The notes below the pieces were generated by a model, which saw only the letters and a list, made by a program, of their open reading frames with translations, was not told the DNA's origin and did not search any database. A DNA stretch of 27,442 nucleotides from Rhodospirillales bacterium (GTDB lineage Bacteria; Pseudomonadota; Alphaproteobacteria; Rhodospirillales; Magnetospirillaceae): positions 1 through 27,442 of the forward strand of contig JASHSH010000365.1 of NCBI GenBank assembly GCA_030040955.1, written 5' to 3'. Positions within the stretch are counted from its first letter, which is position 1. Every line of letters starts with the position of its first letter. Of the stretch, positions 1,139 through 21,133 are shown one piece after another. Both the position numbers and the translations under genes were made by a program.

Positions 1139-2863
1139 CTACCGAATTTGTTCGCGCGTGCCGCTCCAGGCCGCAAGCGCCGCTTCTACCACGGCCATCG
1201 CGCCGGCCCAGTCTCCGGGCTTGGACTGGCGAAACAGTCGCATGGTGGGATACCACGGGCAATCCTCGCGGTCGAGCAGCCACCGCCAGTCGGGAGCGAA
1301 TGTCAACACCACCCATGTCGGCTTGCCGAGCGCGCCAGCCAGATGGGCGACCGACGTGTCCACCGTGATCACCAGGTCTAGAAGACCGATCAAGGCCGCG
1401 GTCTCGGCAAAATCGGTCAGTTGAGTCCGATAATCAGAGAGTCCAGGTGTGGCAGCCAGAGCATCTTCGTCGACTCCATGCGGAGCCGGTTGAATCAGAT
1501 ACCAGGACGCGGACCGGTTTCGAAGCAGCGACGTGAATGCCGAGAACGGCGCGGACCGGTTGCTGTCGTTTTGCTGCGCCGGATTGCCCGACCAGGCGAA
1601 ACCGATGTGTGGACCGGGACCGACCACGCGTTCGCGCCACTTCGCCATCCGCGCGGGATCCGCGACGAGATATGGCGAACGCGACGGTATCGTCTCGAGT
1701 CTCGTGTCGAATAGTCTTGGCAGGCTCAACAGCGGACAGTGCAAATCGAACGGTGGCAGCGGGTCGCCGCGTCCGATGACGCGCCAAGCTCCGTCCAAGC
1801 CGGTCAGCAGCGGCATCAACGGCCGCTGCACCTCCAGCACAACGCGGGCGCCGCGCGCGGCAACCATTTCGACGTAGCGGCAGAATTGGATCGTGTCGCC
1901 CATGCCACCTTCAGCATGCAACAAGATGGTCCGGTTGGCGATGTCCCCTCCATCCCATTGCGGTTGGACCAGGCCGCGAGGCTTGAGTGCCTCGACTCCG
2001 CCCCGCCAGCGCCACTCGTGCAAATCCCATCCTTCCGCGAATTGTCCGAGTTGCAGTCGTACGAGCGCCTCGTTGTACCGCGCTTTCGGGAAGTCCGCAT
2101 TGGTAGGCAGGACCATCCGATACGCCCCGATCGCCTCCTGGTACCGCCCCAGCTTCTCCAAAATGAAGCCGAGATTGATGGGTGTCTCGTTGTGACCGGG
2201 ATCGATTTCGAGGGCGCGGCGATAGGCGTTCGCCGCCTCCTCCCGGCGGCCGAGCGCCTGCAAGGCGATGCCGAGATTGTATTGGGCGTCCGCGCTTTCC
2301 GGTCGCACGGCCAGCGCCGCGCGGTGGAATTCCTCGGCCTCGCGGTGCCGGCCAAGACTCGCGAGCACCACGCCGAGATTGTTGTGCGCGTCGAAATGGT
2401 GCGGGCGGACCGCGATCACCTTCCGATATTCCTCCATTGCCTGCGGAAGCCGCTCGAGTTTCGCAAGCACATTGCCCAGATTGTATCGCGCGTCGACATT
2501 GGCCGGATCCAATTCGAGCGCGCGGCGATAACTCGCGGTCGCCTCCTCGAACTTCCGCAACGACTCGAGCGCGACGCCCAGGTTCGAATGATAGGCACCC
2601 CGCGTCGGATCCGCGGCGACGGCGGCGGCAAGCAAGTCGGCCGCGAGCAAGTTTCGATCGGTCTGGAGGGCTATGACTCCCAGTCCATTCGAAGCGGCGG
2701 CATGACCGGGCTCGCCGGACAGAATGCGGCGATAGAGAGCCTCGGCATCGGACAGGTGGCCGCTCGCGTGCTGGTGCTGGGCGGATTCGAGAAGCCGCTC
2801 GATCGAAACCGAATGAGAACCGATACGCGCCAATTCTCCGCTCCGGCACCGGCTCCTGGCCAC
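1139..2863 (-). CDS. TPR-containing glycosyltransferase, GT9/heptosyltransferase-like GT-B C-terminal domain
   Basis: About 7 TPRs followed by EGGMGDTIQF...HCPLLSLP...LDLVITVDTSVAHLAGALGKP...DWRW...PWYPTMRLFRQ. The start is uncertain: GTG 2863, or TTG 2833 which has a GGAG just upstream. Confidence 0.88.
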   Translation of the reverse strand: MARSRCRSGELARIGSHSVSIERLLESAQHQHASGHLSDAEALYRRILSGEPGHAAASNGLGVIALQTDRNLLAADLLAAAVAADPTRGAYHSNLGVALESLRKFEEATASYRRALELDPANVDARYNLGNVLAKLERLPQAMEEYRKVIAVRPHHFDAHNNLGVVLASLGRHREAEEFHRAALAVRPESADAQYNLGIALQALGRREEAANAYRRALEIDPGHNETPINLGFILEKLGRYQEAIGAYRMVLPTNADFPKARYNEALVRLQLGQFAEGWDLHEWRWRGGVEALKPRGLVQPQWDGGDIANRTILLHAEGGMGDTIQFCRYVEMVAARGARVVLEVQRPLMPLLTGLDGAWRVIGRGDPLPPFDLHCPLLSLPRLFDTRLETIPSRSPYLVADPARMAKWRERVVGPGPHIGFAWSGNPAQQNDSNRSAPFSAFTSLLRNRSASWYLIQPAPHGVDEDALAATPGLSDYRTQLTDFAETAALIGLLDLVITVDTSVAHLAGALGKPTWVVLTFAPDWRWLLDREDCPWYPTMRLFRQSKPGDWAGAMAVVEAALAAWSGTREQIR

Positions 2864-2927
2864 CCTCGGTCATCTGCCGCACCGCGAACTCACTCGGCTC
2901 GCGGTAGGTGATTCGCGACGCCGGTTC

Positions 2928-2956
2928 ATCTAATCGGCGCCACCCGGAGGGTCAAG
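2928..2956 (-). promoter_or_regulatory. sigma70-type promoter candidate for the 1139-2863 gene
   Basis: The minus strand reads CTTGAC-N17-TTAGAT, close to the alphaproteobacterial RpoD consensus CTTGAC-N17-CTATAT, and lies in the intergenic gap. Confidence 0.45.
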
Positions 2957-2967
2957 CCCGGCCACCC

Positions 2968-4602
2968 TCAGCGCCCTTCGCCTCCTTCGGCCAGCTTAGC
3001 GTACGCGACCAGCGCGTTCCGTACCCGCCCGGCAACAGCACTCCAGTCCCCGCGCTTGGGTTGGCGAAACAAGCGCATCGTTGGATACCAAGGACTGTCT
3101 TCGCGTTCACGGAACCAGCGCCAATCGGGCGCGAAATCGAGCAATGCCCAGGTCCGGACCCCCGTCGCGCCGGCGAGATGGCAGACCGCGGTGTCGACGG
3201 AAATCACCACATCCAGGCTGGCCATGAGGGCCGCGGTATCCGCGAAATCGGCGAATTCCCGACCCGCGTCCAGCGTGCGCCGCCCCCCTCCGACCGCTGC
3301 CAGCTCATTCGGGCTCGCGTCTTTCTGCAAGCTGACCAAGGTGGCGGGAAGGTCGCCGAGCATGTAGGCAATTGCGGTCGGATCGACGGAACGATAGCGA
3401 TTGCGCGATTGCGTCGCCTTGCCCCTCCATACCAGGCCGACTTTCGGCCGTGGACCGTTTCCGACCCAATCCCGCCACTTTGCCGCAAGACTTGGATCGA
3501 TGCGTATATACGGTACCGCGGCGGGTATGGTCGCGAAGCGCGTGCCCAAGGCGAACGGCAGGGAAAGCAGCGGACAATGCGCATCGTAGGGCGGCAGCGG
3601 TTCGCCCTGCGTGACGGTCTCGATGCCTTCGATCGAGTGAAACAGCCGGGCAAGACTCCTAGGTGCCTCCACGACGACTCGCCAATCTCGGTCCGCGACC
3701 TGGCGAGCGAAGCGCACGAATTGAATGGAATCGCCCGCGCCTTGCTCCGGCCAAAGCAAAATCGTGCGCCCGCCGCCGACCTCTCCCGACCATAGGGGGC
3801 TGCCGTATCCGCGCATCCTCCGTTCGGCGTCCGCGTCGAGCCGCCAGCGCCATTCATGTTCTCCGAGACCATTCTCGAAGTCGCCCCGGAGCAGAAGACC
3901 CAGCCCCATGTTCCAATGCGCGTTCGCGTAGTCGGGTCGCTGGGCAAGGGCCGCGCGATAGCTGGTCAGCGCCTCGTCGTATCGGCCGAGTTCGCGCAAG
4001 ACGATGCCGCGGTTGTTGTGTCTCTCGGCGGAGGCAGGCGCCAGCTGGAGCGATCTGGCTAGGCTCGCCTCGGGCTCCTCCATCTGGCCCAGTTCCATCA
4101 AGGCAGCGCCCAGGCTGCCGTGGGCGGATGCCTGTTCGGGAGCCAAATCGACGGCGCGACGCAGAGCGGCCACGGATGGCTCCAAACTTCCCTGTTCCAT
4201 TGCCGCGATGCCGAGATTGTAATGCGCGGACGCCAGATCGGGTTGGAGCTCGACCGCACGGCTATAGGATAAGACGGCATCGGCGAGCCGGCCTAGACCC
4301 TTGAGCGCGTTTCCCAGGTTGACGTGGTAGGCAGCGACCGAGCCGCTTACCTGAATCGCACGTCCAATCCATTCGATCGCAGATTCGTGCGTACCGGCCC
4401 GCGACGCGATCACGCCGCGCAGATGAAGGGCATCGGGTTGATTTGGCTCGATGGCGAGAACTTCCTCGCACAAAGCGTCCGCGTCGGCCGAGTTGCCGTC
4501 TCGTTCCAGCCTCAGGGCGTCGGCTACGAGCCGTGGAATTGCCGCGGTGCCGCGAGCCCCGGACGCCGCCCGCTTCGCCACTTCCTTTTGTTCGCGAACC
4601 AT
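2968..4602 (-). CDS. TPR-containing glycosyltransferase, GT9-like
   Basis: TPRs followed by EQGAGDSIQF...HCPLLSLP...VDTAVCHLAGATG...DWRW...SPWYPTMRLFRQ. ATG 4602 (MVREQKEV) is preferred over 4716 because the extension is non-TPR and occupies the divergent intergenic region. Confidence 0.88.
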   Translation of the reverse strand: MVREQKEVAKRAASGARGTAAIPRLVADALRLERDGNSADADALCEEVLAIEPNQPDALHLRGVIASRAGTHESAIEWIGRAIQVSGSVAAYHVNLGNALKGLGRLADAVLSYSRAVELQPDLASAHYNLGIAAMEQGSLEPSVAALRRAVDLAPEQASAHGSLGAALMELGQMEEPEASLARSLQLAPASAERHNNRGIVLRELGRYDEALTSYRAALAQRPDYANAHWNMGLGLLLRGDFENGLGEHEWRWRLDADAERRMRGYGSPLWSGEVGGGRTILLWPEQGAGDSIQFVRFARQVADRDWRVVVEAPRSLARLFHSIEGIETVTQGEPLPPYDAHCPLLSLPFALGTRFATIPAAVPYIRIDPSLAAKWRDWVGNGPRPKVGLVWRGKATQSRNRYRSVDPTAIAYMLGDLPATLVSLQKDASPNELAAVGGGRRTLDAGREFADFADTAALMASLDVVISVDTAVCHLAGATGVRTWALLDFAPDWRWFREREDSPWYPTMRLFRQPKRGDWSAVAGRVRNALVAYAKLAEGGEGR

Positions 4603-4784
4603 CCGATCCAGGTGAGCTTCTCGGGCTCGGGAAACGAACGGTAGTGTACGTCGTCGGCGGAAAGTCAGTCGAGGGGACTCCCTTGATTCCGGCGCATGCA
4701 ATCGGCTACGTCTCACTCGGCGACGGCCGAACTCTTCCCGCTCGCCGCCAGCGAAATCGTACGGCAGAAAGAGAACGCAGGTTC

Positions 4785-6626
4785 ATGCCCGATCGTTCGG
4801 ACGACTTTCGGCGGCAGGCGCAACGAAACTCCAATGTTTCCGCCGACGCGGTGCGGGAACTCGTGGAAAGCGGCATGCGACTCGGCGAGTCGGGACAGTT
4901 GGACGGAGCCGCCGAGCGATTTCGCCAGGCACTGGACCTGGATCCCGATAATGCGGCGGCCCTGGGCGGGCTGGGCAACGTCGCGCAAAGTCAAGGGAGG
5001 CTCGACGAAGCCGTTGCAAGTTACCGCCGCGCGCTGGATGCGGACCCAGGACTAGGATTCGCGCGGGGCAATCTTGGAGTTACCCTGCTGACGCAGGGCA
5101 ACTACAGAGATGGCGCCGAGGCGCTTCGCCTGGCTTGCGAAGCAAATCCTGAGTCGGCGCTGTTGTGGATGCATTACGGCAACGCTCTTCTGTCCATTGG
5201 AGAGCTCGACGAGGCGGAGAGGAAATTCCACCGCGCCTTGGAAATCGTCCCCCGTTCCGCCGAGACGCGTTCGGGCCTGGCTGAAATTCTGCGCCGCCGG
5301 AAGCGCAATGAGGAGGCGATCGCCGAATACCGGCGCGCCATCGAAATCTCGCCCGACTTCTCGGCCGCGCAGCTTGGAATCGGCCTCGTCCTCCTCTCCA
5401 CCCGGCGCTTCGAGGAGGCGGCCGCGGCCCTTCGTCGTGCCATCGAACTCGCTCCGACGCATGCCGAGGCACGGTGCAATCTGGGTATGGCGTTCGCCGC
5501 CCTGAACCGGGTCGACGAGGCCATCGAATGCTACCGGCGCGCGCTGGCGCTCGATCCGCGACTGGCCGCCGCTCCGTACAATCTCGGCACCCTGCAGCAG
5601 AGTCTGGGCCGAGATGACGAGGCGATCGACAGCTTCCGGTCGGCGATCGCAATCCGTCCCGACTACGCCGAGGCGCACAACAACCTGGGGAACTCGCTTC
5701 TCCGCCGCGGCCAGCTCCTCGATGGTTGGGACGAAATCGAGTGGCGCTGGCTGTGCCCGGTATTGAACCTGGGCCCGAAGGAGCGGTATCCGAGGCCGCT
5801 ATGGTCGGGCGAGGCGGCTCCCGCGGGCGCCTCGATTCTCCTGTGGTCGGACACCAGATACGGCGACGTCATCCAGTTCGTTCGCTACGCGCCGATCGTT
5901 GCCCGGTCGGGATGGCGGGTCGTTCTTGGCGTTCCGCATCCGCTCAAGCGTCTGGTCGAGAGCATACCCGGCACCATCGTCGTCGCCGAGGGTGAGATCG
6001 TCCCCGGCTTCCATGTTCATTGCCCGCTGACCAGCGTGCCGCGCATGCTGCGAACCACGCTCGAGACGATACCCGCCGCGATACCGTATCTCCGGCCGGA
6101 GCCGCGCCTGGTCGACAGTTGGCGCGGGAAGCTCGGCGGGTTGCCGGGAACGAAGGTCGGCATCGCATGGAGGGGCGCGGCGGCGCATGCCCGGGATCCG
6201 GGGGGGTCACTGGAACCCGCCCTATTCGCGCGAACGTTCGAGGACGAGGAACTCTCGCTCGTGGTCTTGCAGACCGATGCGACGGCCGATGAGGTCGCGG
6301 CACTACGCGCGGGCGGACGAATTTTCGGCGCGGGCGAGGAGCTGACGGACTTCGCCGAGACCGCGGCGCTGATCGCCAATCTCGATTTGGTGATCACCGT
6401 CGATACCGCGATTTGCCATCTCGCCGGCGCGCTCGGCGCTCCGGTCTGGACGCTGCTCGAACACGTCCCCGATTGGCGCTGGATGGAAGGCCGCGCGGAC
6501 AGTCCCTGGTATCCAACCATGCGGCTGTTCCGACAGACTCGCCCGAAGGATTGGGATTCTGTGGTCGACCGGGTCCGCGCCGAGCTGCGGAGCTTTGTGA
6601 ATGACCGTGCATCTCCAAAGGGTTAA
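4785..6626 (+). CDS. TPR-containing glycosyltransferase, GT9-like
   Basis: Probable start ATG 4785 (MPDRSDDF). About 8-9 TPRs followed by DTRYGDVIQF...HCPLTSVP...VDTAICHLAGALG...DWRW...SPWYPTMRLFRQ. The ORF-track extension to 4443 overlaps the opposite-strand gene. Confidence 0.88.
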   Translation: MPDRSDDFRRQAQRNSNVSADAVRELVESGMRLGESGQLDGAAERFRQALDLDPDNAAALGGLGNVAQSQGRLDEAVASYRRALDADPGLGFARGNLGVTLLTQGNYRDGAEALRLACEANPESALLWMHYGNALLSIGELDEAERKFHRALEIVPRSAETRSGLAEILRRRKRNEEAIAEYRRAIEISPDFSAAQLGIGLVLLSTRRFEEAAAALRRAIELAPTHAEARCNLGMAFAALNRVDEAIECYRRALALDPRLAAAPYNLGTLQQSLGRDDEAIDSFRSAIAIRPDYAEAHNNLGNSLLRRGQLLDGWDEIEWRWLCPVLNLGPKERYPRPLWSGEAAPAGASILLWSDTRYGDVIQFVRYAPIVARSGWRVVLGVPHPLKRLVESIPGTIVVAEGEIVPGFHVHCPLTSVPRMLRTTLETIPAAIPYLRPEPRLVDSWRGKLGGLPGTKVGIAWRGAAAHARDPGGSLEPALFARTFEDEELSLVVLQTDATADEVAALRAGGRIFGAGEELTDFAETAALIANLDLVITVDTAICHLAGALGAPVWTLLEHVPDWRWMEGRADSPWYPTMRLFRQTRPKDWDSVVDRVRAELRSFVNDRASPKG

Positions 6627-6714: not shown

Positions 6715-6996
6715 ATGAATCGCAAGGAAAGGCGCGCCGCAGCGAGTCAGCCGCCGGCCGGCGTGCGTCCGGCCGGTCAGCAGACCGGGCTGGCATCCGC
6801 GGCAAGTCCGCCGGCCAGGCCGAGTTTCGCGCTACGGATGGTATCGAGGATACTGCTATCGCCAATGGTGCTGTCCCGCGTGCGGCAGCGCGACCTCGAG
6901 CGCGTGCTCGCCGCCATCGCCGTCGAAGCCGGGCGGCCCGAGGTCGCCGACAGCCTGCTCCGCCGTCAGGCGATGCGCGATGCCGGAGGACGCTGA
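6715..6996 (+). CDS. small hypothetical protein (93 aa) beginning MNRKERRAA
   Basis: It fills the gap between two real genes. It has a basic N-terminal motif of the kind often seen at the start of TPR proteins, then a Pro/Ser/Ala-rich stretch and a predicted helical C-terminus. Confidence 0.6.
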   Translation: MNRKERRAAASQPPAGVRPAGQQTGLASAASPPARPSFALRMVSRILLSPMVLSRVRQRDLERVLAAIAVEAGRPEVADSLLRRQAMRDAGGR

Positions 6997-7014: not shown

Positions 7015-9123
7015 TCAATAGGGCACAATATCGAAGCTGTAGCTGATCCTTCGCCCGTCCGCGGCGAGCGGCACCGTCATGTGCCAGACGAAGGACGGAA
7101 AGGTGACCAGCAGACCCGGCCGCGGCAGGATCATGCGCTCGGCCGTGGGTGCGCCATTCCGCCGCCAGCGTTCTTCGCCCGGGCCGAGGCGCAGCCAGCC
7201 CTGGCGGGTCGGGTCGTCCGCGCGCACCGACGGCGGAACCTCCACATAGTAGACCCCGCTCAGCCAGCCTTCGGCGTGGATGTGGGGAATCTGGTGACCC
7301 TCGCGCTCCATGATCACGGTCCAGGCGTTCATCCGGTAGGTTTGGGGCGCGTGGGCGTCGAACGGATGCAGATTCGGCGCGACGGAATCGATGCGCTCCT
7401 CGACCGCCCGCAGAATCGCCGAATTCAGCGCCGCGATCTCCGGCTCGCCGCTGTCGGCCAGATTGCCGCTGTGCCATCCGGCCCGCGTGGCATGCCGGCT
7501 TGGGGACGGTTCGAGGCTCGACACCCGAGATAGCGCGCGCGCCAGCTTGGCGTTGAACTTGTCGATCCAGGCATAGCCCGCGGGCACGGGAAGTTCCTGC
7601 GTCACGACCAGACGGTCCAAATCGGCAAGCGCGGATTCCTCGGCGTGGCGGCCCAGTTCGGCCAGCGCGATGCATTCGAAGGCGAGCGCGCGGGCATCCC
7701 ATCTTCCGTCGGCCAGAATTCGCTCGGCCTGGGCGAGCGCCTGTCGTGCCTTGCCCTGTCCGAGCAGCGCCGGCATCAGGTTGTTGCGCGCACCGACATG
7801 CCGCGGGTCGCGTGCCTGCGCCCGACGGAACGCGGCAGCGGCGGCGCGATAATCGTGCAGCTCGAACCAGGCTTGGCCGAGCAGAAAGGCGGATTCCGCT
7901 GCGCCGTCGGCAACGGCGCGGCGCAAGGCGACGACGGCGTCGACCGGCCTTCCCGCCGCGAGCAGCGCCTCGCCGAGCACTCGTTGGACATAAGCCGATT
8001 TTGGCGCCGCGGCGGCCGCCTCCTCGGCCAGCGCCGTGGCCTCGGCTGGCTTGCCGAGCTGCAAGGCCGCGCGGGCCTCGCCGGCAAGGACGAAAGGCTG
8101 ACGCCCGCTTCGCGCGACCAGCTCTTCGCCGAGTCCGAACGCCATTTCGGGTTGACGGTGACGCAGATGCAGGTCGATCCGGCGCAGGTCGGGCGTCGAC
8201 CAGGCCTCGAACATGGATTTCGCGCGCGAAGACGGCAGCGGGAGCCAATGGCGGCGCCGAGGGGCGGCACGCGATTCCTCCTGTCGCGCCACATAATCGT
8301 AGAGCCGCTCCGCTCCTTCCGCGTTGCCCTCATGCAACCGGCCGTGCGCCACGGAGAGAATATCCGCGCGCGTACGCGCCTTGAAGGCGGGCAAGTGCAG
8401 GATGCGCGGGCGATCCCGATTGTTCTCCGGCAGGCGGGAGCCGCGATAGTTCCAGGAATAGTCCAGGGTGCGCAGCCGCAGGCCGAATTTGTTGCTTTCC
8501 GGGCCGAGAATTTCGACCAGGCTGATCTGATCCATGCACAGAAGTTTGCGGCGCACGTCCGGGTCCGCGACATGGGCAAGCGCGGGCAGTGTCGGCAGCG
8601 GATCGAGACCAGCGAGGCGGAAATTCCGCTCCGAGGATTCCGCCCATGCGCGCAGCCAGGACCACACCGCGTCGCCGCGGCGGAACAGCGCGAGGCCGGC
8701 GTTGAACATGCGCTTTCCGAATCGGCGCCGCGAATAGCTGTCGTCGGGCGCGGTCTCGACCATCGCCAGATCGCATTCGTCGAGCAGGTCGAACAGGCCG
8801 GGCAATTCGTGGGTGAAGATGCGCGTGTCGGTGTCGAGATGAAGGGTGCGCTCGTACGGGGTCAATGGAAGCGAGCGCAGCCGGTTGAGCTGGCCGGCCG
8901 CCCAATCCGACGCGATGCCGCTCACCCCCGCGATCCGCCGCACCTCGTCGAACCGCCCCACCCCGCACAGCGGGTGGTCGGGCCGATCGGTGAACAGGGT
9001 GACGGACAGGTCGGGGAATCGCCGCTTCACGCTGTCGGCGGAAAGGAACGCCTCCTCGACATAGCGGTCGTCCTGGCTCGCGACGTAGACGATGCCGCGC
9101 GCGGCGCCGGTGGCGGCGTTCAT
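7015..9123 (-). CDS. GT8-like GT-A domain + TPR + putative 2OG-Fe(II) oxygenase (TIGR02466/PF13759-like) fusion
   Basis: Start ATG 9123 (MNAATGAARGIVYV). The N-terminus has GT8-type motifs LHLDTD, FNAGL, DQ, LDYSWNY and ILH, followed by TPRs. The C-terminus has NAWTVIM...HQIPHIH...WLSGVYYV...PRPGLLVTFPSFVWH...RISYSFD. Confidence 0.8.
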   Translation of the reverse strand: MNAATGAARGIVYVASQDDRYVEEAFLSADSVKRRFPDLSVTLFTDRPDHPLCGVGRFDEVRRIAGVSGIASDWAAGQLNRLRSLPLTPYERTLHLDTDTRIFTHELPGLFDLLDECDLAMVETAPDDSYSRRRFGKRMFNAGLALFRRGDAVWSWLRAWAESSERNFRLAGLDPLPTLPALAHVADPDVRRKLLCMDQISLVEILGPESNKFGLRLRTLDYSWNYRGSRLPENNRDRPRILHLPAFKARTRADILSVAHGRLHEGNAEGAERLYDYVARQEESRAAPRRRHWLPLPSSRAKSMFEAWSTPDLRRIDLHLRHRQPEMAFGLGEELVARSGRQPFVLAGEARAALQLGKPAEATALAEEAAAAAPKSAYVQRVLGEALLAAGRPVDAVVALRRAVADGAAESAFLLGQAWFELHDYRAAAAAFRRAQARDPRHVGARNNLMPALLGQGKARQALAQAERILADGRWDARALAFECIALAELGRHAEESALADLDRLVVTQELPVPAGYAWIDKFNAKLARALSRVSSLEPSPSRHATRAGWHSGNLADSGEPEIAALNSAILRAVEERIDSVAPNLHPFDAHAPQTYRMNAWTVIMEREGHQIPHIHAEGWLSGVYYVEVPPSVRADDPTRQGWLRLGPGEERWRRNGAPTAERMILPRPGLLVTFPSFVWHMTVPLAADGRRISYSFDIVPY

Positions 9124-9127
9124 CGGT

Positions 9128-10876
9128 TCAGGCCCCGCCGGGCGGCGCGACCGCGAACGGCTCGGGCTGCATGCCCCGGCACGCGCGCTCCCACATCCGC
9201 GCGTAGGCCGCCTCGATGCCGCGCGCGAACCGGGGCGTGTCGAACAGCGGCAGCGACAGACGATCCCGTCGCAGCCCATCCCGGATGGCGGCCAACCTCG
9301 CCGGATCCGCGGCCAGAGACATCGCCAGCGATTCGTATTCTTGCGGCGATCGCGTCACCAGCTCGCCGAGGCCGGCGGCGTGCAGCAAGCTCGCGCCCAC
9401 CCGGCCGGCGAAGGTTTCCCCGAGGCAGGTGATCGCGGGCAATCCCGCCCACAGCGCGTCGCTCATCGTCGTATGGGCGCCGTAGGGGAGCGTGTCCAGG
9501 AACAGATCCGCGAGTCGATGCCGGGCGAGGTGTGCGGGCAGTTCCGTGCGCGGCGCGAAAACCACGCGCGCCGGATCGACCTCCCGAGCGCTGGCCTCGC
9601 GCCGCAAATTGGCCCGTACCTGATCGAGCAAATCGGGCGCGGCCGAGTCGAGCAGCCAGAGCACGCTTTCCGGGACCGCGCGAAGCAGCCGCATCCATAT
9701 CGCGAAGAATTCGGGCGTGAGCTTGACCGGCGCGTTGAAGCAGCAAAATACGAATCCTCGTTCCGGCAATCCGCATTCGACGCGGGTCGGCACGCGTTCC
9801 GCGATCGGGCGCATCCTGTCGTTCGGCTGATAGCAATGCGGCAGCTGCACGATCCGTTCGGAAAAATTGCGCTGCTCGGTTATCGGCAGGAGGTGGCGAT
9901 CCGCGAGCACGTAATCGATCCAGTCGGCGCCCGTCGTGCCCGGATAGCCGAGATAGGCGACCTGAATCGGCGCCGGATGTCGGCGCAAGATGTCCATCGC
10001 GTTCGGTTCCATATGCCCCATCAGATCGATGGCGATGTCCACGCCATCGGCGCGGATGCGCGCCGCCGCATCCGCTGCCGGAAGGCCGCCGATATCGACG
10101 AAGTCATCGACGCCCGAGCGCATGCGCGCGCGCATCGGTCCATCGTCGTCGGGGCCGATGGAATAGGCACGGACCTCGAAGCGGCCGCGATCGTGGCGCT
10201 CGAACAGCTCGGCGATGAGAAATGCGACGGCGTGCTCGCGGAAAGTGCCGGACACATAGCCGAGGCGAATGCGCCCGTTCTCCCGCGCGCGCAAGGACGG
10301 ACCAGCAATTGCGCGCAGACCGAGGGAATCAATCTGACGGCGCGCGCAGATATACTGGTCTCTCGACGTCGAGCGGAGGAACAGCAAGATCGTTGGCCGC
10401 AGGCAGGCGCCGCGCTCCCGCACCGCTTCGATAACCTCCTGTTCGTCGGCTTCGACGCGCGACCAATCGCAAACCGAGCGGTTCGCAATCGCCCGCTCCC
10501 CCAGCGCATCGCCATAGCAGGAGCGATGCGCCGCGGAGGCGACCGCCTGGGAATTGATGGCGAGCGCCTTGGCGTATTCGCCCAGCGCCTGGTCGCGCCG
10601 GCCGAGGCGGAACAGGGCATCGCCCAACCCGACCAGTGCCGCGGCGTCGCGCGGTTCCAGCTCGTGCGCGCGCAGGTACAGCGCGCCCGCCTCGACGAAG
10701 TTTCCCTTGCGCCACCGGCCTTCGGCGAGCGCGCGACACTCCGCCGCCGATCGGGGCTCGTGTGGCGGAGACGTCTCGGAGACCGCGACGGATCCGTCCA
10801 TGGCTCGCCGCGGTTCTTCCGCCGAATTCGGACCGGCGGCCATAAGACCCTTCAATTTTCCAAGCAGCGATGGCAC
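9128..10876 (-). CDS. GT41 O-GlcNAc transferase/SPINDLY-like glycosyltransferase with a short TPR region
   Basis: Motifs LGYVSGTFREHAV, DIAIDLMGH, PAPIQVAYLGYPGTTG, FNAPVKL and DLFLDTLPYGAHTTMSDALWAG. The GTG start has GAGG upstream. Confidence 0.9.
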   Translation of the reverse strand: MPSLLGKLKGLMAAGPNSAEEPRRAMDGSVAVSETSPPHEPRSAAECRALAEGRWRKGNFVEAGALYLRAHELEPRDAAALVGLGDALFRLGRRDQALGEYAKALAINSQAVASAAHRSCYGDALGERAIANRSVCDWSRVEADEQEVIEAVRERGACLRPTILLFLRSTSRDQYICARRQIDSLGLRAIAGPSLRARENGRIRLGYVSGTFREHAVAFLIAELFERHDRGRFEVRAYSIGPDDDGPMRARMRSGVDDFVDIGGLPAADAAARIRADGVDIAIDLMGHMEPNAMDILRRHPAPIQVAYLGYPGTTGADWIDYVLADRHLLPITEQRNFSERIVQLPHCYQPNDRMRPIAERVPTRVECGLPERGFVFCCFNAPVKLTPEFFAIWMRLLRAVPESVLWLLDSAAPDLLDQVRANLRREASAREVDPARVVFAPRTELPAHLARHRLADLFLDTLPYGAHTTMSDALWAGLPAITCLGETFAGRVGASLLHAAGLGELVTRSPQEYESLAMSLAADPARLAAIRDGLRRDRLSLPLFDTPRFARGIEAAYARMWERACRGMQPEPFAVAPPGGA

Positions 10877-10908
10877 TCGTTTCCTCGAGGTCCGACGTTG
10901 TCAGCGCG

Positions 10909-11880
10909 CTAAAGGTCACCGATGGCGATTCGTGACGCAGAAAGGACGGCGGTTTCCCGAATCGCCGAACGGAGGTAATCGACCTGATCGCGGCGGCAAA
11001 ATATCTCGAAGCCATGCTCCTCGACCTCGCGTCGGCGGGCATCGGAGCGAACAAGATCCACGCAGGCGGCGACCAGGCGGTCCAGCGGTACGTCGACGAT
11101 CGCTTGGCGAACATCCGGCTCAACGTCCGTGCCGGGATAGCATTCGCTTACCACGACTTTTCGGTTCGCCAGCGGATAGGAGGTTCGCACGATCTCGTGA
11201 ATCAGACTGTCGTGAAACTGAATATTGACGACGACCTTGGATCGCGCAATCCAAGCGTCGCGGACGGCGCCATATGCGCCGTACAGACCGCGCACGCGAA
11301 GGCCGGCCTGTTGAAGCGCGAGCAGCACCATCCTGCGCCGGTCGTTGATCGAGCCATAGAAGAGCACGTCGACGTCCTGCTCGGGAACGGGCTCGATGCG
11401 CCGGAGCTGCGGAACATATCCGATGCGCAGAATTCGGACACCGTCGTGCCCTAGTTCATCTCTCCAAATCGAGGCATTTCGCGGGCTGTAGTCCCAGAGC
11501 GGGAATCCGCGCGTCAGCTCCAGGTACTCGGGGAGTCGGCCTTGCGAAGCCGGTCGGTCCATTGGCTCCAGATTGCAGATGACGGAGTTCGGCGGCAGCC
11601 GCAGGGGTTGTCCGACAAACGTGAGAAGATGCGCACCAAATACCAGGTTGATGCCTTCTCCGACGAGGGGCTCATTGACCGCGAAGTCGGTGGTCGCCCC
11701 GAGCGAGGGGAACGCACTCCGCAAGGCGAGAATCAGCTCGGCGAACGCACCGGTGTGCGGGTTGGTCGGCGGCTGGACAAGCAGCAGACGCACGCGCCTC
11801 CACGCCTCCGGGAGGACGAATTCCTCCGCCGGAGGGACCTCCGCGGACTTGACCTCGCCTGCGGTCCGCCACCAAGCCAC
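10909..11880 (-). CDS. putative GT-B-fold glycosyltransferase-like protein (CgeB/Glyco_trans_1_2-like C-terminus)
   Basis: DVLFYGSINDRR...YGAVRDAWIARSKVVVNIQFH...EIVRTSYPLANRKVVVSE. GTG 11880 lies 1 nt after the rfbD stop; GTG 11904 is an alternative start. Confidence 0.65.
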   Translation of the reverse strand: MAWWRTAGEVKSAEVPPAEEFVLPEAWRRVRLLLVQPPTNPHTGAFAELILALRSAFPSLGATTDFAVNEPLVGEGINLVFGAHLLTFVGQPLRLPPNSVICNLEPMDRPASQGRLPEYLELTRGFPLWDYSPRNASIWRDELGHDGVRILRIGYVPQLRRIEPVPEQDVDVLFYGSINDRRRMVLLALQQAGLRVRGLYGAYGAVRDAWIARSKVVVNIQFHDSLIHEIVRTSYPLANRKVVVSECYPGTDVEPDVRQAIVDVPLDRLVAACVDLVRSDARRREVEEHGFEIFCRRDQVDYLRSAIRETAVLSASRIAIGDL

Positions 11881-11881
11881 G

Positions 11882-12808
11882 CTAGCACTTGGACATCGCG
11901 GCACCGTCTCGGCTTGGGCGCGCGGTTTGACGAATTGCCTTCAAATATTCGTCGACCATCCTGGACAGCGAATCCCGCCAGGGCGGAGCATGGATGCCGA
12001 AGACTCGCGCGATCTTCCCGCAGTCGAGCCTCGAGTCCGCCGGTCGGCGCGCATGGGTTGGCATGTCCGCCGTTCCGACGCGGATCACCCTGGGTCGGCG
12101 CAAACCGAACGAGGCGGCACGCTCGAAAATGGCCTCGGCATATTCCGCTCGGCTCACGCCGCCGTCGCCGCAAAAATGATATGTGCCCCAGGCTCGACTG
12201 CCGGCGGCGAGCGCGGCGGCGAGGCGGACCAACGCGCCGGCGAGGTCGCGCGCCCAGGTCGGCGAGCCGTGCTGATCCCCGACCACGCGCATTTCGTCGC
12301 GCGTTTCGGCGAGACCGAGCATGGTGCGGACGAAGTTCGTCGTCGAATCGCCGTATACCCAGGAAGTGCGCAGCACGATGTGCCGTAACGCGGCCTCGCG
12401 CACCGCACGTTCGCCGGCCTCTTTGCTCGCCCCGTACACGGATAGCGGCGCGACCCTGTCGTCCTCGACATAGGGGGCGCCCTTGGCGCCATCGAAGACA
12501 TAGTCCGTCGAGAAATGAATCAGCGGGATGCCGAGTTCGGCGCTCGCCCGCCCGAGATTTGCCGGCCCCTGTGCATTGACCGCGTATGCGCGATCCCGTT
12601 CGCTCTCGGCGCGATCGACGGCCGTGTAGGCGGCGAGATTGACGATGAGGTCCGGCGATTCTCTGCGGGCGACCGCCGTCACCGCGTCAGCCTCCACAAT
12701 ATCCAGCGCGGCGTGGTCCAGGCCGATCACGGTCCACTCGCCCGGCCACGCGGCGGACATAGCCTCGCGCCCGATCAAGCCGGCGGCGCCGGCGATCAGC
12801 ACTCTCAT
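11882..12808 (-). CDS. rfbD: dTDP-4-dehydrorhamnose reductase
   Basis: GAAGLIG Rossmann motif, NLAAYTAVDRAE, STDYVFDG, YGASK (YxxxK), LRTSWVYG, DQHGSPT and RPADSRLD all match RmlD. Confidence 0.95.
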   Translation of the reverse strand: MRVLIAGAAGLIGREAMSAAWPGEWTVIGLDHAALDIVEADAVTAVARRESPDLIVNLAAYTAVDRAESERDRAYAVNAQGPANLGRASAELGIPLIHFSTDYVFDGAKGAPYVEDDRVAPLSVYGASKEAGERAVREAALRHIVLRTSWVYGDSTTNFVRTMLGLAETRDEMRVVGDQHGSPTWARDLAGALVRLAAALAAGSRAWGTYHFCGDGGVSRAEYAEAIFERAASFGLRRPRVIRVGTADMPTHARRPADSRLDCGKIARVFGIHAPPWRDSLSRMVDEYLKAIRQTARPSRDGAAMSKC

Positions 12809-16362: not shown

Positions 16363-16400
16363 AGGATATGCGCGCTTGTTCGAATTGATCCGACGCGGTC

Positions 16401-16422
16401 TCGTGCAGTTGATCCTGCACGA
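16401..16422. repeat. perfect 8-bp inverted repeat
   Basis: TCGTGCAG-ttgatc-CTGCACGA, ending 16 nt before ATG 16439. Confidence 0.55.
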
Positions 16423-16438
16423 TCGTTCCAGCCCCGAA

Positions 16439-18262
16439 ATGAATTCGGCACGGGCCCAGACATCGGCCCAGCAGGGAAACTCGACCGTAGCGCACGCGCA
16501 TCTGGCCGAGGCGCGCTCGCGGATGACGCAGGGCCGGTGGGACGAGGCCGAAGCGTTGCTCCGGAAATCCGTCGATGCGGATGATTCCCTCGTCGATGCC
16601 TATGGCGCCTTGGCGGAGATTTTCTGGCGCCAGGGCCGCTTCCTCGAATCCACAGCGATGAGCCACCAAGTGGCAAGCCGCGACCCGCGCGACGCAATGG
16701 CGCGGTTCCACCTCGGCGATGGACTCATGCAGCTGGGCGATTTCGATGAAGCCGTCGCCGCTTTTCGGGCCTCGATCGCGCTGAAGGCGGACTATGCGCC
16801 GGCGCATGTTCGGCTCTCGGTCGCGCTCGAGCGGCTGGGACGATACGAGGATTCGGCTGCGGCGGCCTCGCGCGCCGTGGCGATCGACGCGAGTTCGCCG
16901 GCGGCGCGCTTTCGGCTTGCCTTTCTGCGCCGCTCCGTCTGCGATTGGCGGGAGTTCGCGTCCGACGCGGTATTCATCCGCCGGTCGATTCGAGACGGTG
17001 CGGGATTCTTCCCCGGCGCGATTTCGCTCATGCCGGCGACCGCGGCGGAGCAGCTGCGCAACGCGCGCGACTTCGTCGCCGGTCTCGATCTGCCTCCGCC
17101 CATGCCGATCGTCTCGCGCGAGTCCAGAAGCGACGTGCGCATCCGGCTGGGCTATTTGTCGAGCGGATTGCGCGAGCATCCGACGGGGCGTCTGATCGCC
17201 GAGCTGATCGAGCTGCATGACCGAAAACGATTCGAAGTGCTGGGATACTCGCTCGCCAGGGACGACGGCAGCCGCCTCGGCGCGAGGATCGCGCAGGCAT
17301 TCGACCGGATCGCGTATATTCAGGACGGCTCCCAGGCGGAGTTCGCCGCGCGCATCCGCGACGACGAAGTCGATATCCTGGTGGACCTCAACGGTCACAC
17401 GGACGGCAACGGAATTCGCATCCTGGCGCGGCGGCCCGCTCCGATTCAGGTGAACTATCTCGGCTATCCGGGGACGATGGGCGCGGCGTTCATCGACTAT
17501 CTGATCGCCGACAAAATCGTCGTTCCCGAATCCGATCAGGACTCCTACTCCGAAAAGCTGGCCTATTTGCCGCACAGCTACCAGGTGAACGATCGCCGGC
17601 GGCCCATCGGCGAACCTACGCCCGCGCGCGCCGAACTGGGTCTGCCGGAGCACGGTCTGGTGTTCGCCTGCCTCAACGACCCGCGCAAGATCGTGCCCGA
17701 ATTCTTCGATCTCTGGGTGCGTCTGCTCGCAGCGGTGCCGGACTCGGTGCTGTGGCTGATGGGAGGGCGCGATGCGGCCGCGCGGAATCTTCGCCGCGAG
17801 GCCGAGCGTCGCGGCGTCGCGGAATCGCGCCTGGTGTGGGCGCCGAGGCTGCCGGCGCCCGAACATCTGGCGCGTGTCCGCCGGGCCGATTTGTTCCTCG
17901 ACACGCTGCCTTGCGGCGGACATACCACCTTGAGCGACACGCTGTGGGCCGGCGTCCCCGCGGTAACCTGCCTGGGCGACGCCTTTCCCGGGCGCGTCGG
18001 CGCGAGCCTGCTGCGCGCCGTGGGCCTGCCCGAGCTGGTGACCGAATCGCTGGCGGAATACGAGGCGCTTGCGCTCCGCCTCGCCCGCGATCCGTCTCGC
18101 CTCGCCGAACTGCGCCGCAGATTGCATACAAACCGGGAGATGGCGCCGCTGTTCGATACGCCCCGTTTCGTCAGACATATCGAGGCGGCATACGAGGAAA
18201 TGTGGAGAAACTGGCGCGCACAGCGGCCGCCTCGCCCAATAATCGTAAGAGAAACTCCTTAA
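16439..18262 (+). CDS. GT41 O-GlcNAc transferase-like glycosyltransferase with about 4 TPRs
   Basis: Probable start ATG 16439 (MNSARAQ). Motifs LGYLSSGLREHPT, DILVDLNGHT, PAPIQVNYLGYPGTMG, LNDPRKI and DLFLDTLPCGGHTTLSDTLWAG. Confidence 0.9.
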   Translation: MNSARAQTSAQQGNSTVAHAHLAEARSRMTQGRWDEAEALLRKSVDADDSLVDAYGALAEIFWRQGRFLESTAMSHQVASRDPRDAMARFHLGDGLMQLGDFDEAVAAFRASIALKADYAPAHVRLSVALERLGRYEDSAAAASRAVAIDASSPAARFRLAFLRRSVCDWREFASDAVFIRRSIRDGAGFFPGAISLMPATAAEQLRNARDFVAGLDLPPPMPIVSRESRSDVRIRLGYLSSGLREHPTGRLIAELIELHDRKRFEVLGYSLARDDGSRLGARIAQAFDRIAYIQDGSQAEFAARIRDDEVDILVDLNGHTDGNGIRILARRPAPIQVNYLGYPGTMGAAFIDYLIADKIVVPESDQDSYSEKLAYLPHSYQVNDRRRPIGEPTPARAELGLPEHGLVFACLNDPRKIVPEFFDLWVRLLAAVPDSVLWLMGGRDAAARNLRREAERRGVAESRLVWAPRLPAPEHLARVRRADLFLDTLPCGGHTTLSDTLWAGVPAVTCLGDAFPGRVGASLLRAVGLPELVTESLAEYEALALRLARDPSRLAELRRRLHTNREMAPLFDTPRFVRHIEAAYEEMWRNWRAQRPPRPIIVRETP

Positions 18263-20990: not shown

Positions 20991-21033
20991 CACTCGTCCG
21001 CCAGCCCGGCCCCTGGCGCCCGCCGCGGTGCCG

Positions 21034-21063
21034 CTTGGCGGCTCTGTCCGCCTGACCTATTAT
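21034..21063 (+). promoter_or_regulatory. sigma70-type promoter candidate for the second MBL-CNB paralog
   Basis: CTTGGC-N17-CTATTAT (equivalently TTGGCG-N17-TATTAT) in the 143-nt gap between the paralogs. Confidence 0.5.
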
Positions 21064-21133
21064 TCGGTCGGAGGTAGGGCGCGGCCCACCGTGGGGGCGG
21101 GCGCGAACCAAAGGTGAACGTGAGTCGTCGCGT

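What the first reader, a model, noticed from the sequence alone, without database searches (positions are those of the whole stretch)
7015..9123. GT8-like + TPR + 2OG-Fe(II) oxygenase in one polypeptide: candidate bacterial hydroxylate-then-glycosylate enzyme
Seen: an N-terminal GT-A domain with DxD (LDTD), FNAG, DQ, WNY and ILH motifs, central TPRs, and a C-terminal oxygenase with HxH (7276-7284), a distal His (VWH) and an RxSxSF 2OG-binding motif. All expected catalytic residues appear present. Established: lysyl hydroxylase 3 (PLOD3) and mimivirus L230 join an N-terminal GT-A domain to a C-terminal 2OG oxygenase to hydroxylate and then glycosylate lysine. Collagen prolyl 4-hydroxylase binds peptide through TPRs, and Dictyostelium Skp1 hydroxylation-glycosylation senses O2. 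TPR-oxygenase fusions alone are common in proteobacteria; the added GT8-like domain is the unusual part. Inference: the enzyme creates a hydroxyl on a TPR-bound protein or glycan and then glycosylates it, making the modification O2-dependent.
Basis: partly seen in the sequence, partly recalled or inferred. Interest (0 to 1): 0.85.

Follow-up and report, generated by a model that had tools for sequence, protein, structure and literature searches.

The report
Bacterial sugar-transferase fused to protein-type hydroxylase
An uncultured Magnetospirillaceae bacterium encodes one 702-residue protein that joins a glycogenin-like sugar transferase, a TPR protein-binding arm and a prolyl-hydroxylase-like iron oxygenase; the same parts travel together, fused or as neighbouring genes, with a second OGT-type sugar transferase, which points to an undescribed bacterial pathway that hydroxylates and glycosylates a target inside the cell.

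Summary
Window 7015-9123 (-) is one intact 702-aa gene.

- **N-terminal domain (aa 1-290):** a GT8-like GT-A fold. The model has pLDDT 95 and aligns to glycogenin at Z 18.2. The family profile hits glycogenin at E 1e-6. DxD, NAG, DQ, WN and the distal His are conserved.
- **Middle (aa ~300-505):** TPR repeats.
- **C-terminal domain:** PF13759 oxygenase (E 8e-21). Its nearest characterised folds are PHD-type prolyl hydroxylases (Dictyostelium PhyA, P. putida P4H, PHD2).

The fusion is real. About 15 collinear full-length homologue clusters exist, all from metagenomes or MAGs.

New evidence links the parts:
- In gammaproteobacterial MAGs they are separate adjacent genes: TPR-oxygenase, then GT8-like, then a convergent TPR-GT41.
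- The same GT8-like domain is also fused to a second oxygenase family (PF05118).
- A TPR-GT41 gene sits beside 12 of 17 informative GT8+oxygenase loci, but beside only 1 of ~57 TPR-oxygenase-only loci.
- A conserved 93-aa 'MNRxxRR' protein accompanies the module in 5 loci. It is predicted to dock on the TPR arm (score 0.67, best control 0.00).

Still inferred: the hydroxylate-then-glycosylate order, the target and O2 dependence. The metal motif is HxH...H, not the canonical HxD...H. The scan has noted similar TPR-enzyme islands in other genomes, but not this fusion.

Verdict: a new variant of a known kind.

The parts
7015..9123 (-). Whole gene, 702 aa plus stop: GT8-like domain, TPR arm, PF13759 oxygenase
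   Evidence: Continuous ORF. Fifteen collinear full-length homologue clusters at 44-52% identity and 99-100% coverage.
8254..9123 (-). GT8-like GT-A glycosyltransferase domain (aa 1-290). DxD D97/D99 lies at nt 8827-8835. N141, D198-Q199, W224-N225, H243 and K248 are also conserved.
   Evidence: Model pLDDT 95.3. Z 18.2 to glycogenin, 16.2 to LgtC, 15.5 to the Skp1 alpha-GalT Gat1. Profile hit to glycogenin at E 9.5e-7. Eight of 76 relatives hit PF01501.
7609..8253 (-). Helical linker and TPR array (aa ~291-505). Predicted docking surface for the 93-aa protein at aa 360-423.
   Evidence: TPR_19, TPR_16, TPR_1, TPR_2 and ANAPC3 hits at aa 349-470. Interface residues.
7018..7608 (-). PF13759 (2OG-FeII_Oxy_5 / TIGR02466-like) double-stranded beta-helix oxygenase domain (aa 506-702). 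H614-x-H616 at nt 7276-7284, H681 at 7081-7083, R692 at 7048-7050, S694 at 7042-7044.
   Evidence: PF13759 E 8.1e-21. Profile hit to 2rg4/3bvc at E 3e-13. Model pLDDT 95.3. Foldseek hits: 3bvc/2rg4, then PhyA 6t8m, P. putida P4H 4j25, PHD2.
9128..10876 (-). Partner gene directly upstream in the same operon (4-nt gap): short TPR array plus a GT41 (OGT-type) glycosyltransferase
   Evidence: PF13844 E 4.4e-76. A GT41 gene lies beside the GT8+oxygenase module in 12 of 17 informative loci, against 1 of ~57 TPR-oxygenase-only loci.
6715..6996 (+). Convergent 93-aa 'MNRxxRR' protein: basic N-terminus, Pro/Ala/Ser-rich linker, conserved helical C-terminal half
   Evidence: Homologues lie beside the module in L012, L019, L005 (overlapping the GT41 start) and L040. 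Single copy in the genome. Predicted to bind TPR aa 360-423 with score 0.67 against a best control of 0.00.
10909..12808 (-). Upstream operon members: a 331-aa GT-B-like protein (10909-11904) and RmlD, dTDP-4-dehydrorhamnose reductase (11882-12808)
   Evidence: RmlD_sub_bind E 1.9e-100. The 331-aa protein has no Pfam hit but gives feature-based look-alikes to 'Glycosyltransferase family 1 / Glyco_trans_1_2' clusters at score 0.98.

Best explanation
The gene encodes a soluble, cytoplasmic, bifunctional modifying enzyme with three parts.
- A glycogenin-like, Mn-dependent, probably retaining GT8-type sugar transferase.
- A PHD-like non-haem-iron oxygenase of the uncharacterised PF13759 family.
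- One TPR arm joining them, which holds the target or an adaptor.

It works in one pathway with the TPR-GT41 transferase encoded immediately upstream. The 93-aa MNRxxRR protein encoded downstream docks on its TPR arm through its helical half.

The most likely chemistry is as follows. The oxygenase hydroxylates a side chain of a TPR-bound polypeptide, proline being the best guess from the fold. The two transferases then build a short O-glycan on that polypeptide. One sugar is attached to a hydroxyl and the next to the first sugar.

Shown: the domain identities, the conserved catalytic residues, the recurrent fusion or adjacency of the parts, and a computational prediction of TPR-small-protein binding.

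Inferred: 2OG dependence, the hydroxylated residue, whether the new hydroxyl is the sugar acceptor, the order of the two transferases, the donors, and the identity of the target. A dTDP-6-deoxyhexose is plausible as a donor because rmlD is in the operon.
For: **Domain identity**
- Searches support the GT8-like GT-A domain.
- Searches support the oxygenase domain.

**Catalytic residues** are invariant across 15 full-length homologues.

**Coupling of transferase and oxygenase**
- 28 homologue clusters carry GT8-like plus PF13759. Four of these lack TPR. Three carry GT8-like plus PF05118 Asp/Asn-hydroxylase-type oxygenase instead.
- In nine gammaproteobacterial and other MAG loci, the TPR-oxygenase and a ~300-aa GT8-like protein are adjacent separate genes, in the opposite order to the fusion.

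**Coupling to GT41**
- The GT41 gene is adjacent in the window (4-nt gap), L012 (4-nt overlap), L005, L019, L036, L041, L045, L052, L057, L061, L066 and L072.
- It is adjacent in only 1 of ~57 TPR-oxygenase-only loci.

**Protein target favoured**
- The nearest characterised oxygenase folds are protein prolyl hydroxylases.
- PF05118 includes the TPR-bearing protein hydroxylase AspH (established knowledge).
- All characterised GT41 enzymes act on proteins (established knowledge; cyanobacterial Ogt-pilin, bioRxiv 10.1101/2021.07.06.449578).
- TPR-plus-transferase is the design of the flagellin glycosyltransferase FlmG (PMC7591256).

**Small protein**
- It is conserved beside the module in 5 loci.
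- The complex prediction scored 0.67 against a best control of 0.00. That mark was reached by 58 of 80 solved complexes and 2 of 110 mismatched pairs, and holds only roughly here because my own alignments were used.

**Cytoplasmic location:** the sequence shows no signal peptide or membrane segment.
Against: - No member of PF13759/TIGR02466 has a known reaction. The two solved structures are 'uncharacterised protein'.
- The metal motif is HxH...H rather than HxD/E...H, so 2OG-dependent hydroxylation is an extrapolation.
- The target's own N-domain does not reach any Pfam GT threshold.
- More distant fusions sit in different contexts. The PF05118 type lies next to GT4, UDP-galactopyranose mutase or a TPR-sulfotransferase. 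The TPR-less type has no clear neighbours.
- The closest stand-alone GT8-like relatives lie in unrelated contexts, including next to an NRPS condensation domain.
- Five fused loci show neither GT41 nor the small protein nearby: L004, L013, L014, L015 and L044. Some of these are short contigs.
- The gammaproteobacterial loci are mutually syntenic and so are not independent observations.
- The complex score is a model's confidence, not a measurement.
Confidence: 0.55

Rival explanations
1. Same target, independent marks. The TPR arm brings one substrate to two catalytic domains that modify different sites. The GT8-like domain (or GT41) glycosylates ordinary Ser, Thr or Tyr hydroxyls, and the oxygenase hydroxylates another residue. 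The hydroxyl is not the sugar acceptor.
For: Glycogenin-type GT8 enzymes and GT41 enzymes glycosylate existing Tyr, Ser or Thr hydroxyls or sugars without prior hydroxylation (established knowledge; structural neighbours). Related islands also carry TPR-sulfotransferases and methyltransferases, which looks like a toolkit of parallel modifications.
Against: The GT8-like domain is repeatedly and specifically fused to oxygenases of two different families, sometimes with no TPR between them. That is more than expected from merely sharing a substrate.
Confidence: 0.22
2. The target is not a protein. The module modifies a glycolipid or polysaccharide (LPS core, capsule) or a peptide natural product at the cytoplasmic face of the membrane. 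The TPR arms only assemble the enzymes into a complex.
For: Classical bacterial GT8 enzymes (LgtC, RfaI/J) act on LPS cores (one search lists them as structural neighbours). PF05118 also contains the lipid A hydroxylase LpxO (established knowledge). The GT8+PF05118 fusion P0019 lies beside GT4 and UDP-galactopyranose mutase. One stand-alone relative abuts an NRPS condensation domain and one is fused to AMP-binding_C. rmlD and rmlA-like genes are in the window.
Against: The window has no flippase, polymerase, lipid-carrier transferase or exporter. GT41 enzymes are known only as protein transferases. The oxygenase fold is nearest to protein hydroxylases. The protein has no membrane segment.
Confidence: 0.13
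3. The C-terminal domain is not a 2OG hydroxylase. Its three-His site does other chemistry (2OG-independent dioxygenation, demethylation) or only senses or binds a ligand. The protein is then essentially a regulated glycosyltransferase.
For: HxH...H replaces the canonical 2-His-1-carboxylate triad in the whole family. TIGR02466 is matched below its cut-off (44.6 against 62.5 bits). No biochemical study was found.
Against: The Arg-x-Ser motif that binds the 2OG C5 carboxylate is invariant (R692, S694). The distal His and Arg align with a PKHD-type hydroxylase (3dkq). The fold matches 2OG prolyl hydroxylases at Foldseek probability 1.0.
Confidence: 0.1

Closest known systems
Collagen lysyl hydroxylase 3 (LH3/PLOD3) and mimivirus L230
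   Same: One polypeptide carries a GT-A glycosyltransferase domain N-terminal to a C-terminal Fe/2OG oxygenase domain. It hydroxylates a residue and then glycosylates it (PMC5802723).
   Different: These are analogues, not homologues. Neither PLOD nor L230 appears among the 50 best structural matches of either domain. The transferase here is glycogenin/GT8-like. The oxygenase is PF13759 with HxH...H. A TPR arm replaces the accessory domain. The protein is cytoplasmic and bacterial, and it has a GT41 partner.
Skp1 hydroxyproline glycosylation pathway of protists (PhyA prolyl 4-hydroxylase plus Gnt1, PgtA, and AgtA or Glt1/Gat1)
   Same: It is a cytoplasmic pathway. A PHD-type hydroxylase makes the acceptor, and a glycogenin-like GT8 enzyme (Gat1) takes part in building the glycan (bioRxiv 10.1101/764241). 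Both PhyA (6t8m) and Gat1 (6mw5, Z 15.5) are structural neighbours of the two domains here.
   Different: There the enzymes are separate polypeptides. There is no TPR and no GT41, and the first sugar is added by a GT60 enzyme. The target Skp1 has no counterpart identified here. Sequence identity is only 14-16%.
TIGR02466 / PF13759 proteins 2rg4 and 3bvc (structural-genomics entries, function unknown)
   Same: They belong to the same family as the C-terminal domain (profile E 3e-13; best Foldseek hits). They share the HxH, distal His and Arg-x-Ser motifs.
   Different: They are single-domain ~210-aa proteins without TPR or transferase, and no reaction is known for them.
TPR-guided protein transferases and hydroxylases: FlmG (flagellin), OGT/GT41 enzymes, AspH, collagen prolyl 4-hydroxylase
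   Same: A TPR or TPR-like arm selects the protein substrate for a catalytic domain (PMC7591256 for FlmG; the others are established knowledge).
   Different: None of them carries two different catalytic domains on one TPR arm.
Glycogenin and LgtC (CAZy GT8)
   Same: GT-A fold, DxD, NAG, DQ and a distal His (Z 18.2 and 16.2; profile E 1e-6).
   Different: Identity is about 15%. The target's own sequence is below the PF01501 threshold, and the C-terminal helical extension differs. The donor and acceptor are unknown.

Membership tests
CAZy GT8 / Pfam PF01501 (retaining GT-A glycosyltransferases) | GT-A (Rossmann-like) fold superposable on glycogenin and LgtC | tested here: met
   Model pLDDT 95.3. 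VIA-align Z 18.2 to glycogenin 1zdg over 217 aa at 3.5 A, and Z 16.2 to LgtC. Foldseek probability 1.0.
CAZy GT8 / Pfam PF01501 (retaining GT-A glycosyltransferases) | DxD metal/nucleotide motif plus a distal His, and the NAG and DQ motifs | tested here: met
   D97-T-D99 aligns with the glycogenin DxD. D97, D99, N141, G143, Q199, N225 and H243 are at least 90% conserved in 76 relatives.
CAZy GT8 / Pfam PF01501 (retaining GT-A glycosyltransferases) | Scores above the Pfam gathering threshold for PF01501 | tested here: not met
   The N-domain alone has no Pfam hit at E<=10 apart from a chance DUF. Only 8 of 76 relatives match PF01501 (best E 1.6e-8) and 8 match PF03407. It is best called GT8-like, a separate subfamily of the same clan.
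CAZy GT8 / Pfam PF01501 (retaining GT-A glycosyltransferases) | Retaining transfer from a UDP-sugar | not testable with these tools
   Needs an enzyme assay.
Pfam PF13759 2OG-FeII_Oxy_5 / TIGR02466 | Scores above the family threshold | tested here: met
   PF13759 scores 74.7 bits against a cut-off of 27. TIGR02466 scores 44.6 bits, below its cut-off of 62.5, so the protein is a member of the Pfam family but not of the NCBIfam subfamily.
Fe(II)/2-oxoglutarate oxygenase superfamily | Double-stranded beta-helix fold | tested here: met
   Model pLDDT 95.3. Foldseek TM ~0.6 and probability 1.0 to PhyA, P4H and PHD2.
Fe(II)/2-oxoglutarate oxygenase superfamily | HxD/E...H facial triad | tested here: not met
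   The motif is H614-x-H616...H681. H616 is invariant in 45 family members. The carboxylate position is His throughout the family, including 2rg4 and 3bvc.
Fe(II)/2-oxoglutarate oxygenase superfamily | Basic residue (Arg/Lys, often RxS) that binds the 2OG C5 carboxylate, about 10 residues after the distal His | tested here: met
   R692-I-S694 lies 11 residues after H681. R is invariant in 45 sequences and aligns with the same region of the PKHD-type hydroxylase 3dkq.
Fe(II)/2-oxoglutarate oxygenase superfamily | 2OG decarboxylation coupled to substrate hydroxylation | not testable with these tools
   No biochemical report was found for the family.
LH3/PLOD3-L230 bifunctional collagen-modifying enzymes | Homology of both domains to the PLOD GT and LH domains | tested here: not met
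   No PLOD or L230 chain is among the 50 best matches of either domain model. This is a resemblance of architecture only.
Skp1-type hydroxyproline glycosylation pathway | A hydroxylated proline carrying the glycan on a defined target | not testable with these tools
   Only structural neighbourhood to PhyA and Gat1 was shown. No Skp1-like target is identified.

The most novel reading that the evidence does not exclude
Bacteria possess a cytoplasmic, O2-dependent 'hydroxylate, then glycosylate' protein-modification pathway built from non-homologous parts. These are a three-His PF13759 hydroxylase, a glycogenin-like GT8 enzyme and a GT41 enzyme, scaffolded by TPR arms and a detachable MNRxxRR adaptor. 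It would be a functional counterpart of protist Skp1 and animal collagen hydroxy-amino-acid glycosylation. The hydroxylated residue on a small protein or a pilin-like target would be the sugar acceptor.
Probability: 0.25. Interest if true: 0.85.

Novelty: new variant of a known kind. Interest (0 to 1): 0.68.

Why it matters
Glycosylation that depends on prior hydroxylation is known from animal collagen, plant extensins, protist Skp1 and a giant virus. As far as my searches reach, it has not been reported as a cytoplasmic system in bacteria.

This gene gives a compact, directly testable candidate. One soluble protein carries both activities, with a defined partner transferase and a 93-aa binding partner in the same locus.

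It would also give the first functional handle on PF13759/TIGR02466. That oxygenase family is widespread in proteobacteria, cyanobacteria and cyanophages and has an unusual three-His site and no known reaction.

It bears on the many 'TPR-tethered enzyme islands' that this scan keeps finding as well. If the oxygenase step limits glycosylation, the mark would report O2, iron or 2OG status, as in Skp1 and HIF signalling.

Tried and rejected
- **Longer start at 9279.** Rejected. It overlaps GT41 and is absent from homologues.
- **Assembly artefact or chimeric fusion.** Rejected. There are 15 collinear full-length clusters from independent assemblies, plus more distant fused clusters.
- **Single-sequence searches of the N-domain.** Pfam, NCBIfam and PDB gave nothing. 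Only the family profile and the fold revealed GT8.
- **Homology to PLOD3/L230.** Not found.
- **Flagellin as a linked target.** Flagellin-like genes exist in the genome but on other contigs (C188, C377), so there is no linkage evidence.
- **Pilin lead from earlier notes.** Prepilin-type motifs or pilus/T2SS genes lie within ~5-10 kb of the module in L005, L019 and L036, but not in the window or L012. This is suggestive only.
- **Word-index search and Atlas search with the 93-aa protein.** They found only the protein itself or nothing. Pfam found none.
- **Literature searches.** Searches for PF13759/TIGR02466 function and for bacterial hydroxylase-GT41 systems found no characterisation.
- **Context of the PF05118-type and TPR-less fusions.** There is no GT41 there, so the GT41 link is restricted to the PF13759+TPR clade.
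Full report
**What is there.**

The window is a complete 27.4-kb contig (66% G+C) of a 3.0-Mb, 88%-complete MAG. Its only same-genus relative in the species collection is a 'Magnetospirillaceae bacterium' MAG.

On the minus strand, 7015-9123 is an uninterrupted ORF of 702 codons. The longest possible ORF starts at 9279. Its first 52 codons overlap the end of the upstream GT41 gene and have no counterpart in any homologue. All homologues begin a few residues before the conserved GIVYVA strand. The ATG at 9123 lies four bases after the GT41 stop codon.

**The three parts.**

Pfam places PF13759 (2OG-FeII_Oxy_5) at aa 600-698 (E 8.1e-21, 74.7 bits, cut-off 27) and several TPR families at aa 349-470.

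The first 300 residues match no Pfam, NCBIfam or PDB sequence on their own. An exhaustive search of 1.84 billion representatives found 970 relatives of this domain, 60 of them at E<=1e-30. Several lines then identify it as GT8-like:
- A profile of 76 relatives matches glycogenin-2 and glycogenin-1 at E 9.5e-7 to 1e-4, with the target's D97-T-D99 on the glycogenin DxD.
- Eight of the 76 relatives reach PF01501 (GT8) and eight reach PF03407.
- The AlphaFold model (pLDDT 95.3, pTM 0.91) superposes on glycogenin at Z 18.2 (217 residues, 3.5 A), on LgtC at Z 16.2, on the UGGT catalytic domain at Z 16, and on the Skp1 alpha-galactosyltransferase Gat1 at Z 15.5.
- Foldseek gives the same families in the PDB and in Swiss-Prot models.

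D97, D99, N141, Q199, N225 and H243 are at least 90% conserved in the 76 relatives. These are the positions that bind Mn-UDP-sugar in GT8 enzymes (established knowledge for LgtC and glycogenin). The would-refute condition 'not GT-A fold' therefore fails, and the domain is a divergent GT8-like transferase.

The C-terminal domain model (pLDDT 95.3) is most like the two uncharacterised TIGR02466 structures 3bvc and 2rg4. Next come protein prolyl 4-hydroxylases: Dictyostelium PhyA (6t8m), Pseudomonas putida P4H with and without EF-Tu (4j25, 4iw3), and human PHD2, at E about 3e-8 and TM about 0.6. In Swiss-Prot models the hits are EGLN1 and PKHD-type hydroxylases.

The family profile hits 2rg4 and 3bvc at E 3e-13. 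H616, R692 and the FP pair are invariant in 45 family members, and H614 and H681 are nearly so. The metal motif is thus HxH...H with an Arg-x-Ser eleven residues after the last His. The 2OG-binding element is canonical, but the carboxylate ligand is replaced by His in the whole family.

I found no paper that assigns a reaction to this family.

**Is the fusion real, and how rare is it?**

Fifteen 90%-identity clusters have the same collinear architecture at 44-52% identity and 99-100% coverage.

In one genome per species of 185,579 species, 453 stretches encode a relative. Among the best 80 loci the split is as follows:
- About 57 encode only TPR plus oxygenase.
- About ten hold the full fusion. 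These are Magnetospirillaceae, Rhodospirillaceae, other alphaproteobacterial MAGs, and one Burkholderiales contig end.
- All are MAGs.

Among 40 relatives of the window's genome, only the same-genus MAG has the full-length gene, at just 51% identity and in a different neighbourhood. The fusion is real, rare and patchy.

1. *Other fusions.* Among the N-domain's relatives, 28 clusters are fused to a PF13759 domain. Four of those have no TPR between the domains (about 455 aa). Three are fused to a different oxygenase family, PF05118 (Asp/Asn beta-hydroxylase type, E about 1e-50), with or without TPR.

2. *Split genes.* In nine loci the parts are separate adjacent genes. Most of these are Chromatiales or other gammaproteobacterial MAGs, plus Thiohalobacter and one unclassified Pseudomonadota. 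The order is TPR-oxygenase, then a ~300-aa GT8-like protein, which is the reverse of the order in the fusion. This is the classical 'Rosetta stone' pattern. Five of these loci are mutually syntenic and count as about one lineage.

3. *A GT41 partner.* A TPR-GT41 (OGT-type) gene lies next to the module in the window (4-nt gap), L012 (4-nt overlap), L005, L019, L036, L041, L045, L052, L057, L061, L066 and L072. That is 12 of 17 informative loci. Only 1 of about 57 TPR-oxygenase-only loci has one within 10 kb.

In the window the operon reads rmlD, a 331-aa GT-B-like protein, GT41, and then the fusion.

**The 93-aa protein.**

The convergent gene at 6715-6996 encodes a protein with three features: an invariant M-N-R-x-x-R-R start, a Pro/Ala/Ser/Gln-rich linker with conserved prolines, and a conserved helical C-terminal half.

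Homologues lie beside the module in L012 (convergent, as here), L019, L005 and L040, a Burkholderiales MAG where the gene is again convergent. In L005 it overlaps the GT41 start, so the two are translationally coupled. It is single-copy in this genome and belongs to no Pfam family.

A complex prediction of the full enzyme with this protein passed. The score was 0.67 in all three runs, against a best of 0.00 for three controls. That mark was reached by 58 of 80 solved complexes and 2 of 110 mismatched pairs, and it holds only roughly here because my own alignments were used. The confident contacts lie between TPR residues 360-423 and residues 50-91 of the small protein. The model supports binding but does not show it.

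The same MNRxxRR-plus-basic-linker N-terminus heads many stand-alone TPR-oxygenases and TPR-GT9-like proteins in Proteobacteria and Nitrospira. In the fused enzymes that N-terminus is occupied by the GT8-like domain. The small protein may therefore be the detached N-terminal module, supplied in trans as an adaptor. Its free Pro-rich tail also makes it a candidate substrate. I cannot separate these two readings.

**How it most likely works.**

*Shown:* two intact catalytic domains on one TPR arm, recurrent genetic linkage of GT8-like, PF13759 oxygenase and GT41, and a conserved small partner.

*Inferred:*
- The oxygenase hydroxylates a residue of a TPR-bound polypeptide. Proline is the best guess from the fold neighbours.
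- The GT41 (inverting GT-B) and the GT8-like (retaining GT-A) enzymes build a short O-glycan on it.
- A dTDP-6-deoxyhexose is a plausible donor because rmlD is co-transcribed.

It is plausible by analogy with LH3/L230 (PMC5802723) and the Skp1 pathway, where a glycogenin-like GT8 enzyme acts on a hydroxyproline-linked glycan (bioRxiv 10.1101/764241). It remains untested.

*Rivals:*
- Independent marks on one target.
- A non-protein target (LPS, polysaccharide or a peptide natural product). This is supported by the contexts of the more distant fusions and stand-alone relatives.
- A non-hydroxylase role for the three-His domain.

**Comparison and verdict.**

The protein works like LH3/L230 in architecture and like the Skp1 pathway in its cast of enzymes, but it is a member of neither.
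- It is a member of PF13759.
- It is GT8-like by fold and motifs, but below the PF01501 threshold.
- It fails the canonical HxD/E...H criterion of 2OG oxygenases.

The scan has noted TPR-tethered enzyme islands with GT41, GT9, GT8 and cupin or 2OG oxygenases in other genomes. It has not noted this fusion on other DNA.

I rate it a new variant of a known kind. The domain assignments are well supported and the pathway linkage is well supported comparatively. The chemistry and the target are open.

Noticed in passing
window 6715-6740; L038, L043, L047, L050, L054, L062, L067, L071, L073, L076, L085, L090, L098-L100 (gene starts): An N-terminal motif M-N-R-x-(E/Q)-R-R, followed by a basic low-complexity linker, heads many stand-alone TPR-PF13759 oxygenases and TPR-GT9-like proteins in Proteobacteria and Nitrospira. 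The same motif heads the 93-aa protein here. Its role is unknown; membrane or partner targeting, or a self-modification site, are possibilities.
   Followed up: partly
A1 columns for aa 198 (P0008, P0013-P0016; locus L004): One clade of full-length fusions replaces the Asp of the GT8 'DQ' motif with Ala or Gly (MAQ/MGQ) while keeping the DxD. The same clade lacks GT41 and the small protein nearby. It may use another donor or have lost transferase activity.
   Followed up: no
L019:10007-12096: In a MAG labelled Marinimicrobia the fusion is read as two overlapping ORFs (GT8-like 10007-11026; TPR-oxygenase 10870-12096). This is a frameshift, an assembly error or a genuine split. Three GT41 genes and a small-protein homologue flank it.
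   Followed up: no
L017:1-1873 and protein P0091: Close stand-alone relatives of the GT8-like domain sit directly after an NRPS condensation-domain gene, or are fused to an AMP-binding C-terminal domain. This hints that some family members glycosylate peptide natural products.
   Followed up: no
L005:1-7234; L036:300-1900; L019:~22062: Prepilin-type (GFTLIE) genes, a secretin and a prepilin peptidase lie within 5-10 kb of the module in three loci. This agrees with earlier notes of the scan that link TPR-glycosyltransferase islands to pilins. No such genes are in the window or in L012.
   Followed up: partly
L041:3812-4552 and syntenic genes in L045, L052, L057, L061, L066: A conserved ~246-aa protein with no Pfam family sits between the TPR-oxygenase and the GT8-like gene in the gammaproteobacterial version of the module. 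A methyltransferase and sulfotransferases follow the GT41 gene.
   Followed up: partly
window 1139-6626 and 16376-18262: The contig carries three more TPR proteins with weak GT9-like C-terminal domains, plus a second TPR-GT41. It also carries a methyltransferase, a GT4 and an RmlA-like gene with a 150-aa N-terminal extension. Together they form an island of TPR-tethered transferases without any export or lipid-carrier genes.
   Followed up: partly
window 18378-23368: There are two tandem paralogues with a metallo-beta-lactamase fold and two cyclic-nucleotide-binding domains. Only the first ends in a hemerythrin domain. This could be an O2/iron-sensing link to the oxygenase island, or a coincidence.
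   Followed up: no
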